A model generated the notes under the pieces. That model made no database searches and had not been told where the DNA came from. It saw only the letters and a program-made list of their open reading frames with translations. Positions 30,560 through 35,919 of a stretch of DNA of 64,000 nucleotides are shown here, piece by piece. Position numbers and translations under genes: made by a program. Each line of letters starts with the position of its first letter. The stretch's first letter is position 1. The DNA comes from Acidobacteriota bacterium (GTDB taxonomy: Bacteria > Acidobacteriota > Thermoanaerobaculia > Gp7-AA8): positions 1,518 to 65,517 of the forward strand of contig JAFAOU010000018.1 of NCBI GenBank assembly GCA_019247495.1, given 5' to 3'.

Positions 30560-32848
30560 TCAGAAGAAAACCGGTATCGGATTCAGCTCGGCTTCCGGCA
30601 GCGGTGCGGGCAACCAGCCCAGCGATACCGGAACGTCATACAACCGGCCTGGTCCGAGACGTTGCCAGAAGTGACGCATCCCCGGCACGACCACGCGCAC
30701 CACGGAAAGGCCGATGTCAGGCCGAGTCTGATCGAGGACGAGCGTCTCCAGGCCGTGTTCTGCGGCGATGCGCACACACGCCTCGACGTCGTCTTTCAGA
30801 TCATCGTGGTCGAACCGTCGATAGTCCTGAGCGCCGACGGTTGCACCGGATGGAGCAAGGTATGAATGTTCCGCGAGCGTGGCCGTTCGGAGCCAGTCGA
30901 GAACCTCATCGCTCATCGTGTCGAATGGCGAATCGGCAGTGTGGCGATTGATGACGACCGGCAGAAACTGATTTGTTTCTGTCACCGCGCGAAGGATTCC
31001 GAGCTTCGCATCAAGATGGCAGCCGAATCCGACGATGAGATCCTCGGCCGGCGTATCGATGCGGCGGCTGACGGCGGCGAAGGCGGGGATGCCGAAGTCG
31101 CCGGTGATATCGAGAACCGTGAGATCGCGATTCAGCGAACGGTAGTAGCGCCGCAGCGTGGCGAAGTAAGGCTCATCGAACGTATCGAGGTCGACGGCTG
31201 GCCGGGTCAGGCGGTTGTACCACCAGATGGCGACGCAGTCGCGTTCCACCAGTTCGAGGAATCCCTGCAGGACGGCCTCTTCAAGGGAGTTGCCGGCCGC
31301 GCAGCCGTTCGAGTCGGCCCAACCGAAGGGTTCGCGCGGCTGGTATTCGAAATAGCAGTAGGCCGTCGGGAGGTAGCGGACGCGATCTTCCGTCAACGAC
31401 CAGAGAGGGGACCATTCGATTTCGGCGGAGGGATCGAATGGCGCCGGAACGCGGTGAGAGCGCGGGGCGGGAGTCTCGTTATGCCGTTGGTATTGCGCGG
31501 CGCTGTAAAGCATGCAGTCGTTCGGATGAATGGCGGCGTCGCCGATCGATCCGAAGCTGGCTCGGAAGCGCGGCTCGCTTCCGTCGAAGAGGCCGCTGTA
31601 GCGCTCGATCGCTTCCGCCAGCGCGCCGGCTTTGGCCTGCTGCGCGGTCTTACCCTTTCCGCCGCTCCCGCTGCGGAAGCGTCCGCGCAGCGATTCGAGA
31701 GAGTCATCGATACGCGACGCGTTGCGGCCCGCGAAGCAGAGCGGCGCAGCGGTGGAATCGACCGGCGACTCCGAGGTCAAGTGAGTGACGACTCCGGTCA
31801 GCGCACTTACGTGACGGCTGTAGCGCGCCAGCGTCACTTCCGGCGATTCCGAACGAAAGCCGCCATCGCTGGTGAACTTCTTGGTGCGGCTCGTGAGGCG
31901 GATCGGCTCCGCCGTTCGAGACGGCGCTGCCCGGCCGGTTCCGCATTCAGGGCATTGCGGCCGCCGCACCACCGGATGGCGCTCGCTGGTCAAGCACGCC
32001 AGGTCGATGGTCAGCAGACTGTTCTCCAACTCCGGACTCGGCGCGCCGGCCAGCCACTTAGCTACCTCGGTCGCGATGAGAGAAGCCGCTGCGGACTCGG
32101 TCAGGGGAATGCTGAAGTTGCTCGCCACACGCGGATACGAGTCGTTTTTGCGCCGCTGCACGAACCGCTCGGCCTCGCGCTGCGTGCGCAGACGGTGAGC
32201 GAGGCACGTCCAGCACGCAGTCACGCCAGGCCGGATCAGTGGCCCGATCCAGAGGAGGGAGCCTACGGGACGCGCGAGGAGCCACGGTGATCCGTCCTGC
32301 AGGCGTGCGGCGTTGAATGCGGCTAATTCCGGACGGAGATAGTCATCGGTCAGAACGACTGAAACGCTCCCTTCGGCGGCGACACCGATGCCGGCGGAGG
32401 TCAGCGACCGCAGGAGCGGTTCGGTTGCGATGTCCCCAATCGCCACGATTGCCACGCGAGCTTCGGAGAGAGCACGAACCGCGGTGCCGGGGGAGACACC
32501 GAGCGCATCCCAGAATTGCGCTGCCGGCGGTGGAAGAGAGTCGTCGCTCTCGCGGATGACGCCGCATTTTTCCAGCCGTTCGAGAGCGTAGTAAACCTCG
32601 ATCGCGCTTACGGCCGGCCTCGCCGCGTCAACGATTTCGTCGACGGCCCTTCCTTCGCCGAGAAGAGACGTCACGGCGGTATACGCGGAGCCGCTGAAAA
32701 GCTGGGCTCCCCGCTCGCTGAGCAGGAGCGTGTGCTCGTCATCGACGATGGTGACGTCGTAGCAAGTCCTGAACTCCGGTCGGATAAGCAGGTAGATCTC
32801 CTTTTCGGTACGAGCACGCCCCCGGCGGCCGTGAAACGCTGAGGCCAC
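30560..32848 (-). CDS. fused leader-binding/E1-like + YcaO cyclodehydratase (TOMM/LAP)
   Basis: IGPLIRPGVTACWTC E1-like domain; EAIERYS, DSNGCAAG, ELVERD YcaO ATP motifs; Pro-rich C-terminus PIPVFF. Confidence 0.92.
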   Translation of the reverse strand: MASAFHGRRGRARTEKEIYLLIRPEFRTCYDVTIVDDEHTLLLSERGAQLFSGSAYTAVTSLLGEGRAVDEIVDAARPAVSAIEVYYALERLEKCGVIRESDDSLPPPAAQFWDALGVSPGTAVRALSEARVAIVAIGDIATEPLLRSLTSAGIGVAAEGSVSVVLTDDYLRPELAAFNAARLQDGSPWLLARPVGSLLWIGPLIRPGVTACWTCLAHRLRTQREAERFVQRRKNDSYPRVASNFSIPLTESAAASLIATEVAKWLAGAPSPELENSLLTIDLACLTSERHPVVRRPQCPECGTGRAAPSRTAEPIRLTSRTKKFTSDGGFRSESPEVTLARYSRHVSALTGVVTHLTSESPVDSTAAPLCFAGRNASRIDDSLESLRGRFRSGSGGKGKTAQQAKAGALAEAIERYSGLFDGSEPRFRASFGSIGDAAIHPNDCMLYSAAQYQRHNETPAPRSHRVPAPFDPSAEIEWSPLWSLTEDRVRYLPTAYCYFEYQPREPFGWADSNGCAAGNSLEEAVLQGFLELVERDCVAIWWYNRLTRPAVDLDTFDEPYFATLRRYYRSLNRDLTVLDITGDFGIPAFAAVSRRIDTPAEDLIVGFGCHLDAKLGILRAVTETNQFLPVVINRHTADSPFDTMSDEVLDWLRTATLAEHSYLAPSGATVGAQDYRRFDHDDLKDDVEACVRIAAEHGLETLVLDQTRPDIGLSVVRVVVPGMRHFWQRLGPGRLYDVPVSLGWLPAPLPEAELNPIPVFF

Positions 32849-32868
32849 CGGAGGCTAGTCGTTTGAGA

Positions 32869-33156
32869 TCAGCAGCAGAAGACCATGTCTTTGTGGCAGT
32901 TGGTGCTGCTGCAGAAGGGGGTGCCCTTGTAGTTGCCGAGATGTTCCTCGTTCAGATCGGCGGGCTTCGCCGGGAGGCCGAGAGTGAGCGTGCTCTGCGT
33001 CGAATCGACGGCGATCTTTACCGTGATGGCGGGATTGATCTTCCACCCGGCTTCTTCCAACACCTTCGCCGGCTCCTTGAGGAGACGGTCGCGATAGGCA
33101 TCATCCGACCACGCCCTTGCAATGACTTTTTCATAATTATGAGTTTCTTCCGACAT
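32869..33156 (-). CDS. NHLP (nitrile-hydratase-like leader) RiPP precursor; putative core ~TPFCSSTNCHKDMVFCC
   Basis: KVIARAWSDDAYRDRLLKEPAKVL and LPAKPADLNEEHL leader motifs; Cys/Ser/Thr-rich tail; AAGGA RBS; 20 nt upstream of YcaO. Confidence 0.88.
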   Translation of the reverse strand: MSEETHNYEKVIARAWSDDAYRDRLLKEPAKVLEEAGWKINPAITVKIAVDSTQSTLTLGLPAKPADLNEEHLGNYKGTPFCSSTNCHKDMVFCC

Positions 33157-33246
33157 GACGAATCCTTTCTTTTGAACTGCGTTTATGTCGAGGACCGGGT
33201 CTGACGAGGGACCCCAATGAAAATATCCTCGACACGTTCCTTGGTC

Positions 33247-35919
33247 TCACGGGGATGCGCTGGGAGAGTTACGACGAGGCAGGTTGTAAATGAGCCGCAA
33301 GTGAATCGTCCTGCCGGCCTGGAGCACCCGAGGCAATGTGGTGAAGTTGCCCGGGTCGGAATAGTTCTTATTGAGGAGGTTAAAGGCGCTGAGCTGCAGG
33401 GTTGTTTTCGGCAGAATGCGGTAGCTCAGGGTGGCGTCCGTCGTCGAATACGGATCCGTCTGCGTAAAAGGGTCGGTTGCGTCCGTCGTTCCTGGCCCGG
33501 TCCGCCGGCGTCCCACGAAATGAACGCGCAGCCCGCCGTACAGGCGTAGTGAAGCATCGCTGTCAACTCCTACAGTGGCCTGATTGGCGGCGATGTCGGC
33601 CACTGGCAGCTGTCGAATCACTTTGCCGCTGCCGTCCACGAGTGGATTGCCCTCGAAATCGGCCGGGTTCAGTTGCAGCGGCTTCGTATGTGTGTAATTC
33701 GCCCACAGGCGGAATCGGGACAGCCTGTACGCCGCGGTTGCCTGTAATCCGGTAACGAGGAGACGATCGCGATTCTGATACTGCGCGCACCCCGAGAAAC
33801 AGTCGGGTACGAGGGTGCCGTCGGGCAGGCGCGGCGCGCCGATGGCCACGACGTTCGAATAGCTGGCCCGGTACGCCGACGCTTCCACCGACAGCCTTTC
33901 GTCGCGCTCCCAGCTCGCGCTCAGCTCCACGTTGCGCACGCGCTCCGGTGTAAGGCCGTTGCTGCGATATTCGATGACGTATCGCAATACGCTGAATTTT
34001 TGAGCTTCTGTTGGGTCCTTGAATGCTTCCGAATAAATGCTCTTGAGTACGAGCCGTCCATCGCCCGGTGACCAGATCACTCCGACTCGGGGCGTGAACA
34101 GCGTTCCATAGCCGTACGCGCCGGGTTTGTTGTCGATACTGTTGTGGCTGACCCGGCCTGCAAGAACGAATCGCAACGCTTTATACGGTTTCCATGATCC
34201 CTGGCCATAGACGGCCGCGTCGGTATGCTCATTCTCCTCAGGTTTCTCGAGAGCAGTTCCCGTCAGAAATCCAGGACCGCTGGGCGAAGAATCCAATTGC
34301 GTCTGCACTGAGGATTTTGCGAACTCAACGCCGGCCACGCCGCTGATCTTTTCCGACGGTTCATAGGTGAGGCTGATTTCGCTGCGCAATATGCTGTTGA
34401 GTAAACCGAATGTATCTCTCTCGATCCACGGAGAGGCGGGCGCGCAACCGACCGGCTGCGGGTCGTTCGGAGCGACGCAGGGAGGCACAAGACTCCATAG
34501 GCTGAGAAAGCCGTCGTAATAGCTGTGTGTGTAGTCGAAGCGGGAGCTGGCCCGGTCGAGTGACGTCTGTTGATAGCGCGCGAAGATGTTGAGTTTCATG
34601 CGGTCGAGAGGGACCGAGTACTTCATGTATAGAGCGGTCTCTTTCGGCGTCCATGTGGTATTTCCCGTGATCCCGACCGGTATGCCGTAGGCGGAGATGA
34701 TGCCCTCCTGCGACGACCACGATTGAAGGCCGACGGTCAGGTTTTGAACCCGCAGCCGGGCATTCACGGACCAGTTGTTGGCGCGGTCATCGAAGCCGGC
34801 TCCGTGATCCTCGATCAGCTTCCGATCGAGTCCGCGCACGAGTGTTTCACCCGCATCCGTCAGATCGATTCCCGCGGCGCTGCAACGAATGTAGGGCGAC
34901 GGCGTCGCGCAGAGTGCGGCTCTTTCTTCGGAAGTGCCGCCAAGGTGCAGCAGGCTTTTGTAATCGATGGTCCTGTAGGTGAAGTCGTAAAAAGGGAGCG
35001 CGGAAAGATCGCGCTCTTTCGACTGCTGAAAATTCGCGGCCACGCTCCATGCAATCGTCGCGTCGCGGTTGGCGCCGGCGGCGGTGATGTCCGCGGACCG
35101 ATTCGAGTAGCCGCCACCGGTCACCTCGCCGATCAGTCCGAACCGCCCCTTCTCGCCGATGATCGACTCGGGATCGCGGGTGATGATGCTGATTACGCCC
35201 GTGTACGCATTCGCGCCATACATCGTCGAGGCCGGGCCGTAGATCACCTCGACGCGCTCGATATCCGTCAGCGAATACTGCCGCGAGAGGTAGACCACGC
35301 TGCCGCTCAGATCGTTCTGCTCGACACCGTCGACGAGCAGGAGCAGGCGGTCGTTTTCGTTGTTGAGGTAGCCGCGTTGATAGATGGAGGAGTAGTTCGC
35401 TCCATTCAGCCGCGCGATGTCGAAACCGGGCAGGTCGTGAAGAAGTTGTTCGAGGTCGAGGTAGCCGCGCCGCTCGATTTCGTCGCCAGTGATGACCATG
35501 ACCGTGGCGGGCGCTTCGCGCAGACTCTCGCTCGTCTTCGACACGGAGGTGACCTGCGTCTTCTGCTCCTCTTTGCGCACCTTCGCGACGAGCGAGAGAT
35601 AGCGCGCCGACGATCCGGCCTCGGGTTCGTAGTTCGCCTGCAGTCGGAGGAGCGTGGAGACTTCTTTTCGCGCCTTCTCCGGCTCATCGTTGTTGAGATA
35701 GGCGCGCGCAAGCAGTGAGTGGACGTGGGTTGCTACCGCACGCGAGGTCGGTGTGCCGAGGCATGGGGCGAGTTTCGCAGGGATGTCTTCGAAGAGACCA
35801 AGCTCGTAGGTTTTTTCCGCGTCGTGCAGAGCGTCCTCGCACGCGGTCTGCGCGAAGACCTTGGACGACGAGGTCAGCAGGAAGACGGAAGCGAACAGCG
35901 TGATTGCAGTTTTTTTCAT
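33247..35919 (-). CDS. TonB-dependent receptor with N-terminal TPR-like extension
   Basis: Signal peptide; plug motifs (EAPATVMVIT, IERVEVIYGPASTMYGANAYTGVISII); NLLNKNY...GRT barrel end; ATGA overlap with the upstream gene. Confidence 0.88.
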   Translation of the reverse strand: MKKTAITLFASVFLLTSSSKVFAQTACEDALHDAEKTYELGLFEDIPAKLAPCLGTPTSRAVATHVHSLLARAYLNNDEPEKARKEVSTLLRLQANYEPEAGSSARYLSLVAKVRKEEQKTQVTSVSKTSESLREAPATVMVITGDEIERRGYLDLEQLLHDLPGFDIARLNGANYSSIYQRGYLNNENDRLLLLVDGVEQNDLSGSVVYLSRQYSLTDIERVEVIYGPASTMYGANAYTGVISIITRDPESIIGEKGRFGLIGEVTGGGYSNRSADITAAGANRDATIAWSVAANFQQSKERDLSALPFYDFTYRTIDYKSLLHLGGTSEERAALCATPSPYIRCSAAGIDLTDAGETLVRGLDRKLIEDHGAGFDDRANNWSVNARLRVQNLTVGLQSWSSQEGIISAYGIPVGITGNTTWTPKETALYMKYSVPLDRMKLNIFARYQQTSLDRASSRFDYTHSYYDGFLSLWSLVPPCVAPNDPQPVGCAPASPWIERDTFGLLNSILRSEISLTYEPSEKISGVAGVEFAKSSVQTQLDSSPSGPGFLTGTALEKPEENEHTDAAVYGQGSWKPYKALRFVLAGRVSHNSIDNKPGAYGYGTLFTPRVGVIWSPGDGRLVLKSIYSEAFKDPTEAQKFSVLRYVIEYRSNGLTPERVRNVELSASWERDERLSVEASAYRASYSNVVAIGAPRLPDGTLVPDCFSGCAQYQNRDRLLVTGLQATAAYRLSRFRLWANYTHTKPLQLNPADFEGNPLVDGSGKVIRQLPVADIAANQATVGVDSDASLRLYGGLRVHFVGRRRTGPGTTDATDPFTQTDPYSTTDATLSYRILPKTTLQLSAFNLLNKNYSDPGNFTTLPRVLQAGRTIHLRLIYNLPRRNSPSASP

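What the first reader, a model, noticed from the sequence alone, without database searches (positions are those of the whole stretch)
35550..35919. TBDR carries a ~95-aa helical TPR-like periplasmic cap instead of an STN domain
Seen: after the signal peptide, QTACEDALHDAEKTYELG...LAPCL...LLARAYLNNDEPEKARKEVSTLL precedes the TonB-box-like VTSVSK. It has two Cys that could form a disulfide. The C-terminus also runs past the usual terminal aromatic strand (…LIYNLPRRNSPSASP). Inference: the cap is a signalling handle for the WD40 partner.
Basis: partly seen in the sequence, partly recalled or inferred. Interest (0 to 1): 0.6.

Follow-up and report, generated by a model that had tools for sequence, protein, structure and literature searches.

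The report
TPR cap on STAND-partnered outer-membrane receptor
An outer-membrane TonB-dependent receptor carries a small helical (TPR-like) periplasmic domain that, on outer-membrane barrels from four phyla, was seen almost only next to an inner-membrane STAND ATPase with a periplasmic WD40 propeller, which points to an undescribed outer-to-inner-membrane signalling link.

Summary
Window 33247-35919 (minus strand) encodes an 890-aa TonB-dependent receptor (TBDR). It has a signal peptide (aa 1-23), a ~97-aa cap (24-120) with two conserved cysteines, a TonB box that aligns with CirA's, then plug and barrel.

AlphaFold2 (pLDDT 92) folds the cap as five helices: two TPR-like hairpins plus a capping helix. 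It is not an STN or carboxypeptidase-like domain.

- Of 52 capped-TBDR loci, 48 have a gene for nSTAND1-TM-stalk-WD40 (or at least its periplasmic part) directly upstream.
- None of the 37 nearest uncapped TBDR loci has one.
- The same cap on small porin-like barrels (5 of 5), and once on a barrel-less membrane-anchored protein, also follows this propeller gene. The cap is therefore the common element.
- The partner's model shows a ~160-residue continuous helix after the membrane segment, then a seven-bladed propeller, so both parts are periplasmic.

Limits:
- Physical contact is untested.
- Cys-pair caps also occur beside PEGA-domain Ser/Thr kinases.
- Three capped-TBDR loci lack the partner.

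I found no paper describing this. This scan had already noted the same system in Bacteroidota genomes. Verdict: a new type of N-terminal extension on a TonB-dependent transducer-like receptor.

The parts
33247..35919 (-). Capped TonB-dependent receptor gene (890 aa plus stop)
   Evidence: Translation. Pfam Plug and TonB_dep_Rec_b-barrel. 76 close homologues.
35851..35919 (-). Signal peptide, aa 1-23
   Evidence: Read from the sequence: basic N-terminus, hydrophobic core, VFA|Q cleavage-like site.
35560..35850 (-). The cap, aa 24-120: five helices (two TPR-like hairpins plus a capping helix). Conserved Cys27 (35839-35841) and Cys53 (35761-35763).
   Evidence: AF2 pLDDT 92.1, pTM 0.83. TPR-type structural matches only. 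ESM Atlas matches with TM 0.80-0.91. Cys conservation.
35536..35562 (-). TonB-box region KTQVTSVSK, aa 120-128, and the start of the tether to the plug
   Evidence: Aligns with the ETMVVTA stretch of CirA. V-S-K is >=90% conserved among capped TBDRs. pLDDT falls to 62 at the end of the cap model.
35194..35523 (-). Plug domain, aa 133-242
   Evidence: Pfam PF07715, E 3.9e-20. PDB matches to the plugs of CirA, PhuR and BtuB.
33280..35193 (-). Beta-barrel, aa 243-880
   Evidence: Pfam PF00593, E 8.6e-31. Far below the cut-off of every NCBIfam TBDR subfamily.
33250..33279 (-). Non-conserved 10-aa C-terminal tail (PRRNSPSASP) after the last strand
   Evidence: Variable among close homologues. Absent in distant orthologues.
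35916..39020 (-). Partner gene: nSTAND1 NTPase, TM, stalk, WD40 (1034 aa from Met72 of the long ORF). Its stop overlaps the TBDR start (ATGA), and its start overlaps the TIR gene's stop (ATGA).
   Evidence: Pfam nSTAND1 E 1e-95 and WD40 E 1.7e-44. Junction sequences.
37470..37529 (-). Single transmembrane segment of the partner (P0002 aa 569-588). The N-terminal flank is more basic than the C-terminal flank.
   Evidence: Hydropathy scan: 38 of 39 partner proteins have such a segment about 70 aa after the NTPase domain. Flank sequences.
37047..37469 (-). Periplasmic stalk helix of the partner (P0002 aa 589-729)
   Evidence: AF2 gives one continuous helix, model residues 6-164. Conserved alanines spaced seven residues apart.
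36045..36884 (-). Beta-propeller of the partner (P0002 aa 784-1063), predicted periplasmic
   Evidence: AF2: 27 strands, pLDDT mostly >=90. Pfam WD40.
39017..40501 (-). TIR/DUF4062 protein, the presumed cytoplasmic effector of the cassette
   Evidence: Pfam TIR_2 E 2.1e-10 and DUF4062 E 8.3e-6. Found upstream of the partner in many but not all related loci.

Best explanation
The cap is a periplasmic mini-TPR domain: two hairpins plus a capping helix, with the first hairpin probably stapled by a Cys27-Cys53 disulfide. It hangs from the receptor's plug on a short tether that contains the TonB box. This is the position the STN domain holds in FecA-type TonB-dependent transducers.

It most likely serves as the docking and communication module between the outer-membrane protein and the periplasmic end (propeller and top of the stalk) of the inner-membrane nSTAND1-TM-stalk-WD40 protein encoded just upstream. 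Together they would form an envelope-spanning link.

My proposed sequence of events: an event at the receptor (ligand binding, TonB-driven plug movement, or hijacking by a phage or bacteriocin) changes the cap-propeller contact. The change passes down the stalk and across the membrane to the STAND NTPase. The NTPase switches or oligomerises and activates the co-encoded TIR protein.

Shown here: the domain layout, the fold, the conserved Cys pair, the TonB-box position, the specific gene-neighbourhood link, and the partner's predicted topology.

Inferred: the physical contact, the direction of signalling, the nature of the stimulus and the TIR output.
For: (1) Fold and position. AF2 gives pLDDT 92 and five helices. 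All structural matches are TPR-type. The TonB box lies C-terminal to the cap.

(2) Specific co-occurrence. 48 of 52 capped-TBDR loci have the partner gene directly upstream on the same strand. Only a signal peptide or a short gap separates them: 60-345 nt from the partner's stop to the first cap residue. A 49th locus has it convergent within 3.3 kb. These loci come from Acidobacteriota, Latescibacterota, Ignavibacteria and many Bacteroidota. None of the 37 nearest uncapped TBDR loci has it.

(3) The cap, not the barrel, is the common element. Caps on small OMP_b-brl_2 barrels follow the same partner gene in 5 of 5 loci. A barrel-less, TM-anchored cap protein does too.

(4) A locus with a 'headless' partner (TM, stalk and propeller, no NTPase) still keeps the capped TBDR (L044). 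Seven nSTAND1-TM relatives with other outer parts have no cap or plug gene nearby.

(5) Topology. 38 of 39 partners have one TM segment. The window's partner has a more basic N-terminal flank, a ~160-residue continuous helix and a confident propeller.

(6) In three cultured Bacteroidota genomes the only cap hit in the whole genome is the partner-adjacent TBDR. The window's own genome has two hits, both in such cassettes.

(7) Cap distances track those of the stalk and propeller (r 0.66 and 0.56) but not the NTPase (r 0.24). The partial correlation of cap with propeller is 0.31, and of cap with stalk 0.45, both with p about 5e-4.
Against: - No direct test of contact was possible, because the tools offer no multimer prediction.
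- All capped TBDRs form one orthologous family. The capped-versus-uncapped contrast is therefore partly one of family against family, and the loci are not independent.
- Cys-pair caps also occur next to Pkinase-TM-PEGA kinases with no STAND (L084, L106, L114).
- Cys-less relatives are fused to PEGA, NHL or FGE-sulfatase domains. The domain is thus a general module.
- Three capped-TBDR loci have no partner nearby, yet keep an intact cap (L002, L126, L029).
- The plug co-varies with the propeller as strongly as the cap does (partial r 0.45).
- The distance analysis is affected by saturation and by possible swapping of modules.
Confidence: 0.55

Rival explanations
1. The cap is a general periplasmic scaffold. 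It might bind peptidoglycan, an assembly factor, TonB or ExbD, or a peptide. It rides along because the whole receptor gene belongs to the operon. Any contact with the STAND protein would go through the plug or TonB box, not the cap.
For: Cap-like domains sit on many unrelated exported proteins: PEGA-PDZ, LysM, a TssQ-named lipoprotein cluster, FGE-sulfatase. The plug co-varies with the propeller as well as the cap does. Orphan capped TBDRs keep the cap.
Against: Caps on small barrels that have no plug or TonB box, and one cap with no barrel at all, still follow the same propeller gene. In three whole genomes the cap occurs only beside the partner.
Confidence: 0.2
2. The cap is an autoinhibitory lid. 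It masks the TonB box or plug and so gates transport by the receptor, independently of the STAND protein.
For: The cap lies immediately N-terminal to the TonB box. TPR grooves commonly bind extended peptides; the P4H peptide-binding domain and the Hop TPR are among the weak structural matches.
Against: It does not explain the near-obligate neighbourhood with the propeller gene. It also does not explain caps on proteins that lack a TonB box.
Confidence: 0.1
3. The receptor serves the neighbouring azole-peptide (NHLP/YcaO) cluster, for example by importing or sensing the peptide, and the cap binds that peptide.
For: In the window the precursor gene starts about 90 nt downstream of the TBDR stop. 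No terminator-like site was found between them. The same order recurs in L003.
Against: YcaO lies next to the capped TBDR in the window and in one of the 46 related loci scanned for it. The second cassette in the same genome lacks it.
Confidence: 0.05

Closest known systems
TonB-dependent transducers with an STN signalling domain (FecA-FecR-FecI, FpvA, PupB cell-surface signalling)
   Same: An extra periplasmic domain lies N-terminal to the TonB box of a TBDR. The receptor is encoded next to a single-pass inner-membrane protein whose C-terminal part is periplasmic and whose N-terminal part acts in the cytoplasm.
   Different: The extra domain is all-helical and TPR-like, not the STN fold. The partner is a STAND NTPase with a stalk and a WD40 propeller, not a FecR-type anti-sigma factor. 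The linked output gene is a TIR protein, or in some Bacteroidota an HATPase_c_2 protein, not an ECF sigma factor.
nSTAND1-centred conflict systems (Pfam PF20703; Kaur et al. 2021, PMC8195603)
   Same: The partner carries a clear nSTAND1 domain, with a TIR protein encoded upstream.
   Different: That paper's text does not mention TonB, outer membrane or periplasm. Here the sensor part lies beyond a TM segment and is paired with an outer-membrane protein.
Short TPR peptide-binding domains (collagen prolyl 4-hydroxylase peptide-binding domain; Hop/RPAP3 TPR; periplasmic TPRs such as PilF, BamD, LpoP)
   Same: The same general fold, helical hairpins plus a capping helix, about 100 aa. VIA-align Z is about 10; Foldseek TM is about 0.55-0.66.
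   Different: There is no significant sequence relation: Foldseek E is at best 0.08 and Pfam TPR hits are below cut-off. The cap has its own signature, including a Cys pair in the first hairpin.
ESM Atlas cluster automatically named 'TssQ family T6SS-associated lipoprotein' (NCBIfam NF038027)
   Same: Close predicted-structure match over the whole cap: TM 0.85, rmsd 1.8 A, 105 residues. Weak sub-threshold profile hits from two cap proteins, E 8e-5 and 3e-3.
   Different: All scores are below the family cut-off (23 bits against 65). That cluster is a stand-alone lipoprotein of Pseudomonadota. The experimentally studied Bacteroides TssQ is described as a different, elongated TM protein (PMC10781749).

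Membership tests
TonB-dependent receptor | Plug domain followed by a 22-strand-type barrel domain | tested here: met
   PF07715 E 3.9e-20 and PF00593 E 8.6e-31, both above their cut-offs.
TonB-dependent receptor | TonB box N-terminal to the plug | tested here: met
   KTQVTSV aligns with the CirA stretch ETMVVTA. That this stretch is CirA's TonB box is from my own knowledge. The motif is conserved in capped orthologues.
TonB-dependent transducer (STN type) | STN domain (PF07660) N-terminal to the TonB box | tested here: not met
   No STN hit at E<=0.1. The region folds as five helices.
TonB-dependent transducer (STN type) | Adjacent FecR-type anti-sigma factor and ECF sigma factor | tested here: not met
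   The adjacent genes are nSTAND1-WD40, TIR/DUF4062 and YcaO.
SusC/Oar-type TBDR with a CarboxypepD_reg N-terminal extension | CarboxypepD_reg beta-sandwich before the plug | tested here: not met
   No Pfam hit. The model is all-helical.
TPR repeat superfamily | Helix-turn-helix repeats with a TPR-like fold | tested here: met
   All top structural matches are TPR proteins, Z about 10. This is only a generic fold match.
TPR repeat superfamily | A Pfam TPR model above its curated cut-off | tested here: not met
   The best hit is TPR_19: 20.3 bits against a cut-off of 25.
nSTAND1 conflict system (for the cassette) | nSTAND1 NTPase with a co-encoded effector domain | tested here: met
   nSTAND1 E 1e-95; TIR_2 E 2.1e-10 in the overlapping upstream gene.
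TssQ family lipoprotein (NF038027) | A profile score above the curated cut-off | tested here: inconclusive
   Only sub-threshold hits from related cap proteins, together with a good predicted-structure match.

The most novel reading that the evidence does not exclude
The Cys-stapled mini-TPR is a general 'outer-membrane handle'. It would couple outer-membrane barrels, or membrane-anchored proteins, to the periplasmic ends of single-pass inner-membrane signalling proteins: STAND NTPases with a WD40 propeller, and possibly PEGA-domain Ser/Thr kinases. That would define a class of trans-envelope signalling separate from STN/anti-sigma systems. In TIR-bearing cassettes such as this one, it would make an NLR-like receptor that reports events at a TonB-dependent receptor (for instance phage or bacteriocin docking) to a cytoplasmic NAD-consuming effector.
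Probability: 0.3. Interest if true: 0.85.

Novelty: new variant of a known kind. Interest (0 to 1): 0.68.

Why it matters
TonB-dependent receptors are known to signal inward through a single kind of N-terminal domain (STN), which talks to anti-sigma factors. Here a different, small helical domain sits in the same place. On outer-membrane barrels it was found almost only beside a membrane-spanning STAND (NLR-like) ATPase whose propeller lies in the periplasm.

If the two touch, bacteria would have an NLR-type switch that reads the state of an outer-membrane transporter. That is a route by which envelope events could trigger TIR-type responses or regulatory outputs.

The gene pair is present in cultured Bacteroidota (Dyadobacter, Mucilaginibacter, Runella, Sediminibacterium), so it can be tested at the bench.

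Tried and rejected
- STN or carboxypeptidase-like fold: rejected.
- Foldseek against the PDB gave no match at E<=0.001. VIA-align gave only generic TPR matches. No specific solved relative could be named.
- RiPP link: YcaO adjacency was seen in the window and one of the related loci scanned for it.
- Terminator and promoter scan of 32700-41400: no more sites than chance, and none at a gene junction.
- The 476-aa ORF upstream of the orphan receptor in L126 is not a remnant of the TIR or STAND genes.
- Literature searches found no paper describing this pairing. Search terms were nSTAND1; STAND + TonB-dependent + WD40 + TIR; and TonB-dependent + N-terminal extension + TPR.
- The TssQ lead could not be settled for lack of a seed sequence.
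- The language-model Atlas search gave only weak generic TPR leads, with scores of 0.84 or below.
- Three context look-ups returned contigs too short to be informative.
Full report
**1. What is at the coordinates**

The finding lies on the minus strand. Window 33247-35919 encodes an 890-aa protein, P0001. Its start codon overlaps the stop of the upstream gene as ATGA.

Pfam finds a Plug domain (aa 133-242, E 3.9e-20) and a TonB-dependent receptor barrel (to aa 848, E 8.6e-31). There is no STN and no CarboxypepD_reg domain. The N-terminal 130 residues give only sub-threshold TPR hits; the best is TPR_19 at 20.3 bits against a cut-off of 25.

Read directly from the sequence:
- aa 1-23 are a typical signal peptide.
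- aa 24-120 are the cap, with Cys27 and Cys53.
- aa 120-128 read KTQVTSVSK.

A residue-level alignment with the colicin I receptor CirA puts KTQVTSV opposite ETMVVTA, which I know as CirA's TonB box. So the cap lies N-terminal to the TonB box, as an STN domain would.

The 10-residue tail after the last strand is real. It varies freely among close homologues. Three sampled distant orthologues lack it and end in or within one residue of an aromatic. I give it no weight.

**2. The cap is a real, conserved domain with a TPR-like fold**

- A search scored on aa 20-130 alone found 76 receptors of the same length with the same cap.
- The cap alone, run against 1.8 billion cluster representatives, gave 172 hits at E<=1e-3.
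- In a 149-sequence alignment both cysteines, one glycine and two alanines are at least 90% conserved.
- AlphaFold2 on this alignment gave a confident model (mean pLDDT 92.1, pTM 0.83) with five helices: two hairpins plus a long capping helix. Confidence drops at the end, where the tether to the plug starts.
- The cysteines sit at the start of helix 1 and the end of helix 2. A disulfide stapling the first hairpin is therefore plausible. I had no coordinates to measure the distance.
- Foldseek against the PDB gave nothing at E<=0.001; the weak rows were TPR domains and designed TPR-like helical repeat proteins. VIA-align gave Z about 10 to TPR proteins such as MalT domain III, Cns1, PilF, BamD and the prolyl-4-hydroxylase peptide-binding domain. 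For helical repeats this means only a shared general fold.
- The ESM Atlas search by shape was more telling, with TM 0.80-0.91 and rmsd 1.5-2.2 A over about 100 residues. The matches were the N-termini of TBDR clusters from Acidobacteriota and Bacteroidota, a 215-member porin-like OMP_b-brl_2 cluster, PEGA-PDZ proteins, LysM proteins, and a cluster named 'TssQ family T6SS-associated lipoprotein'.

**3. The neighbourhood test**

In the window the upstream gene, P0002, is an nSTAND1 NTPase (E 1e-95) with C-terminal WD40 repeats. Upstream of that, again with an ATGA overlap, lies a TIR/DUF4062 protein.

I fetched 80 genome loci with an alignment of cap plus plug. I then scanned their six-frame ORFs with my own profiles.

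- 43 loci carry a cap-positive receptor. They come from Thermoanaerobaculia, other Acidobacteriota, Latescibacterota, Ignavibacteria and many Bacteroidota. The Bacteroidota include cultured Dyadobacter, Runella, Larkinella, Mucilaginibacter, Sediminibacterium, Nibrella and Persicitalea.
- In 41 of these 43 a gene of the partner family ends just before the receptor on the same strand.
  - In seven of them the contig ends inside that gene. A profile of the periplasmic part identifies each fragment as the partner's C-terminus (E 1e-20 to 1e-114).
  - In one (L044) the partner has a TM segment, stalk and propeller but no NTPase.
- L013 has the partner convergent, 3.3 kb away.
- L029 has none; a reverse transcriptase gene lies upstream.

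Adding the metagenome loci, two census loci and the genome's own two copies gives these totals:

| Group | Loci | Partner directly upstream |
|---|---|---|
| Capped TBDR | 52 | 48 (one more convergent; three without) |
| Nearest uncapped TBDR from the same search | 37 | 0 |
| Cap on small barrel | 5 | 5 |

These loci are related to one another, so the counts are not independent trials.

**4. The cap, rather than the barrel, goes with the propeller**

- The same cap is found on small OMP_b-brl_2 barrels that have no plug or TonB box. All five such loci with readable context (L085, L087, L116, L117, L118) have the partner gene directly upstream.
- One barrel-less protein (signal peptide, cap, TM segment, proline-rich tail) also follows a propeller of this family, with E 6.8e-63 to the C-terminal end of my profile.
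- Conversely, seven nSTAND1-TM relatives in the window's own phylum carry other outer parts: TPR arrays, multi-TM RDD domains, or a double propeller. None has a cap or plug gene within the fetched stretches.
- In three cultured Bacteroidota genomes the only cap hit in the whole genome is the partner-adjacent receptor.

**5. Topology of the partner**

- 38 of 39 partner proteins have one strongly hydrophobic segment about 70 residues after the NTPase domain. The propeller follows about 200 residues later. The single exception is split by a frameshift.
- In the window's protein the N-terminal flank of that segment is more basic than the C-terminal flank, which puts the NTPase inside the cell.
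- AlphaFold2 on aa 566-1105, with 40 aligned partners, gave mean pLDDT 88.7. The model shows one continuous helix of about 160 residues including the TM segment, two short helices, 27 strands consistent with seven blades, and two C-terminal helices.
- The stalk carries conserved alanines spaced seven residues apart.
- By inference, about 140 periplasmic helical residues at 0.15 nm each span about 21 nm. That is enough to bring the propeller near the inner face of the outer membrane, where the cap hangs.

**6. Co-variation**

I compared pairwise distances across 34 complete locus pairs.

| Comparison | Correlation |
|---|---|
| Cap vs stalk | 0.66 |
| Cap vs propeller | 0.56 |
| Cap vs NTPase | 0.24 |
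| Cap vs propeller, controlling for plug, barrel, NTPase | 0.31 (p about 5e-4) |
| Cap vs stalk, same controls | 0.45 (p about 5e-4) |
| Cap vs NTPase, controlling for plug, barrel, propeller | -0.01 |
| Plug vs propeller, controlling for cap, barrel, NTPase | 0.45 |

Propeller distances are near saturation. So this shows only that the periplasmic parts are inherited and diverge together, apart from the cytoplasmic head. It is not evidence of contact.

**7. Limits on specificity**

- The domain family is wider than the STAND context. In a 301-genome sample of the phylum containing Sediminibacterium, 16 genomes had a cap hit at E<=1e-8. Of the hits whose neighbourhoods were fetched, the receptors and three small-barrel proteins were partner-adjacent, and 15 other cap proteins were not.
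- Several of those 15 are proteins with a signal peptide, cap, TM segment and an LPxPPxLP-like tail. They are encoded just downstream of Pkinase-TM-PEGA kinases (L084, L106, L114) or of a PEGA protein (L109).
- In the window's own phylum, cap-like domains are fused to PEGA, NHL or FGE-sulfatase domains.
- A tree of 90 caps splits them into two groups with 93% SH-aLRT support. One group holds all partner-linked caps plus the kinase-linked ones. The other holds the PEGA/FGE fusions.
- The Cys pair is present in 92% and 98% of partner-linked caps and in all five kinase-linked caps. It is absent from all PEGA/FGE-fused caps.
- Three capped-receptor loci lack the partner but keep an intact cap. Two of them (L002 and L126) are the same syntenic site in related metagenomes. 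A close relative of those two (L129) has the full cassette.

**8. Outputs vary**

TIR proteins precede the partner in the Acidobacteriota loci and in part of the Bacteroidota loci. In other Bacteroidota loci an HATPase_c_2 protein, of the anti-sigma-kinase type, sits there instead (L011). In L044 it is fused to a permease.

The NHLP/YcaO peptide genes downstream of the window's receptor recur only in L003. They are missing from the genome's second cassette. I treat that link as local.

**9. Known or new**

- The paper that named nSTAND1 does not mention TonB, outer membrane or periplasm.
- Full-text searches for the combination found nothing relevant.
- No Pfam or NCBIfam model covers the cap above cut-off.
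- Earlier notes of this scan had already described the same pairing in Bacteroidota genomes and in a second piece of this genome. I re-tested their main points here. I add the small-barrel and barrel-less cases, the headless partner, the kinase-linked relatives and the orphan loci.

**10. Verdict**

The cap is a new kind of N-terminal extension on a TonB-dependent receptor, in the position of an STN domain.

On genomic and topological grounds it is most likely the contact point for the periplasmic propeller of a membrane-spanning STAND ATPase (confidence about 0.55). Contact, direction and stimulus are not shown.

Noticed in passing
G000 contig C179, about 89300-96500 (locus L093: 5315-12473, minus strand): The same genome holds a second TIR / nSTAND1-TM-WD40 / capped-TBDR cassette, with 56% identity between the two STAND proteins. 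It has no YcaO neighbour. None of seven genomes of the same family had a cap hit, so the cassettes look horizontally acquired.
   Followed up: partly
L084 5179-5754; L106 9039-9983; L109 9746-10372; L114 9320-10987: Small proteins with a signal peptide, a Cys-pair cap, a TM segment, a Gly-rich stretch and a C-terminal LPxPPxLP-like motif. They lie just downstream of Pkinase-TM-PEGA kinases or of a PEGA protein. The proline-rich C-terminal motif is unexplained.
   Followed up: partly
L044 6609-9921: A 'headless' partner (TM, stalk and propeller, no NTPase) precedes a capped TBDR. It is itself preceded by a permease fused to an HATPase_c_2 domain. L011 has a stand-alone HATPase_c_2 gene in the same place.
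   Followed up: partly
window 37047-37469 (alignment A3): The partner's stalk has conserved alanines spaced exactly seven residues apart over more than 100 residues. Its length from the TM segment to the propeller is near-constant (about 195-205 aa) across phyla.
   Followed up: partly
protein P0046 (1070 aa, ENA): A database protein joins the partner's stalk and propeller to the capped receptor in one reading frame. This is probably a frameshift or gene-call artefact at the ATGA overlap, not a natural fusion.
   Followed up: no
L029 2849-10577: Two capped TBDR genes in tandem with no partner gene nearby. A reverse transcriptase gene lies upstream on the opposite strand.
   Followed up: no
window 35919-35990 and L137 480-660: Partner proteins end with a conserved helical tail after the propeller, with a motif like LTxxEW...Y...CP that includes a cysteine. 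This could be another periplasmic contact element.
   Followed up: no
L007 6671-9791: The partner gene in this Acidobacteriota MAG is split into two overlapping frames. This is a likely frameshift or assembly error.
   Followed up: no
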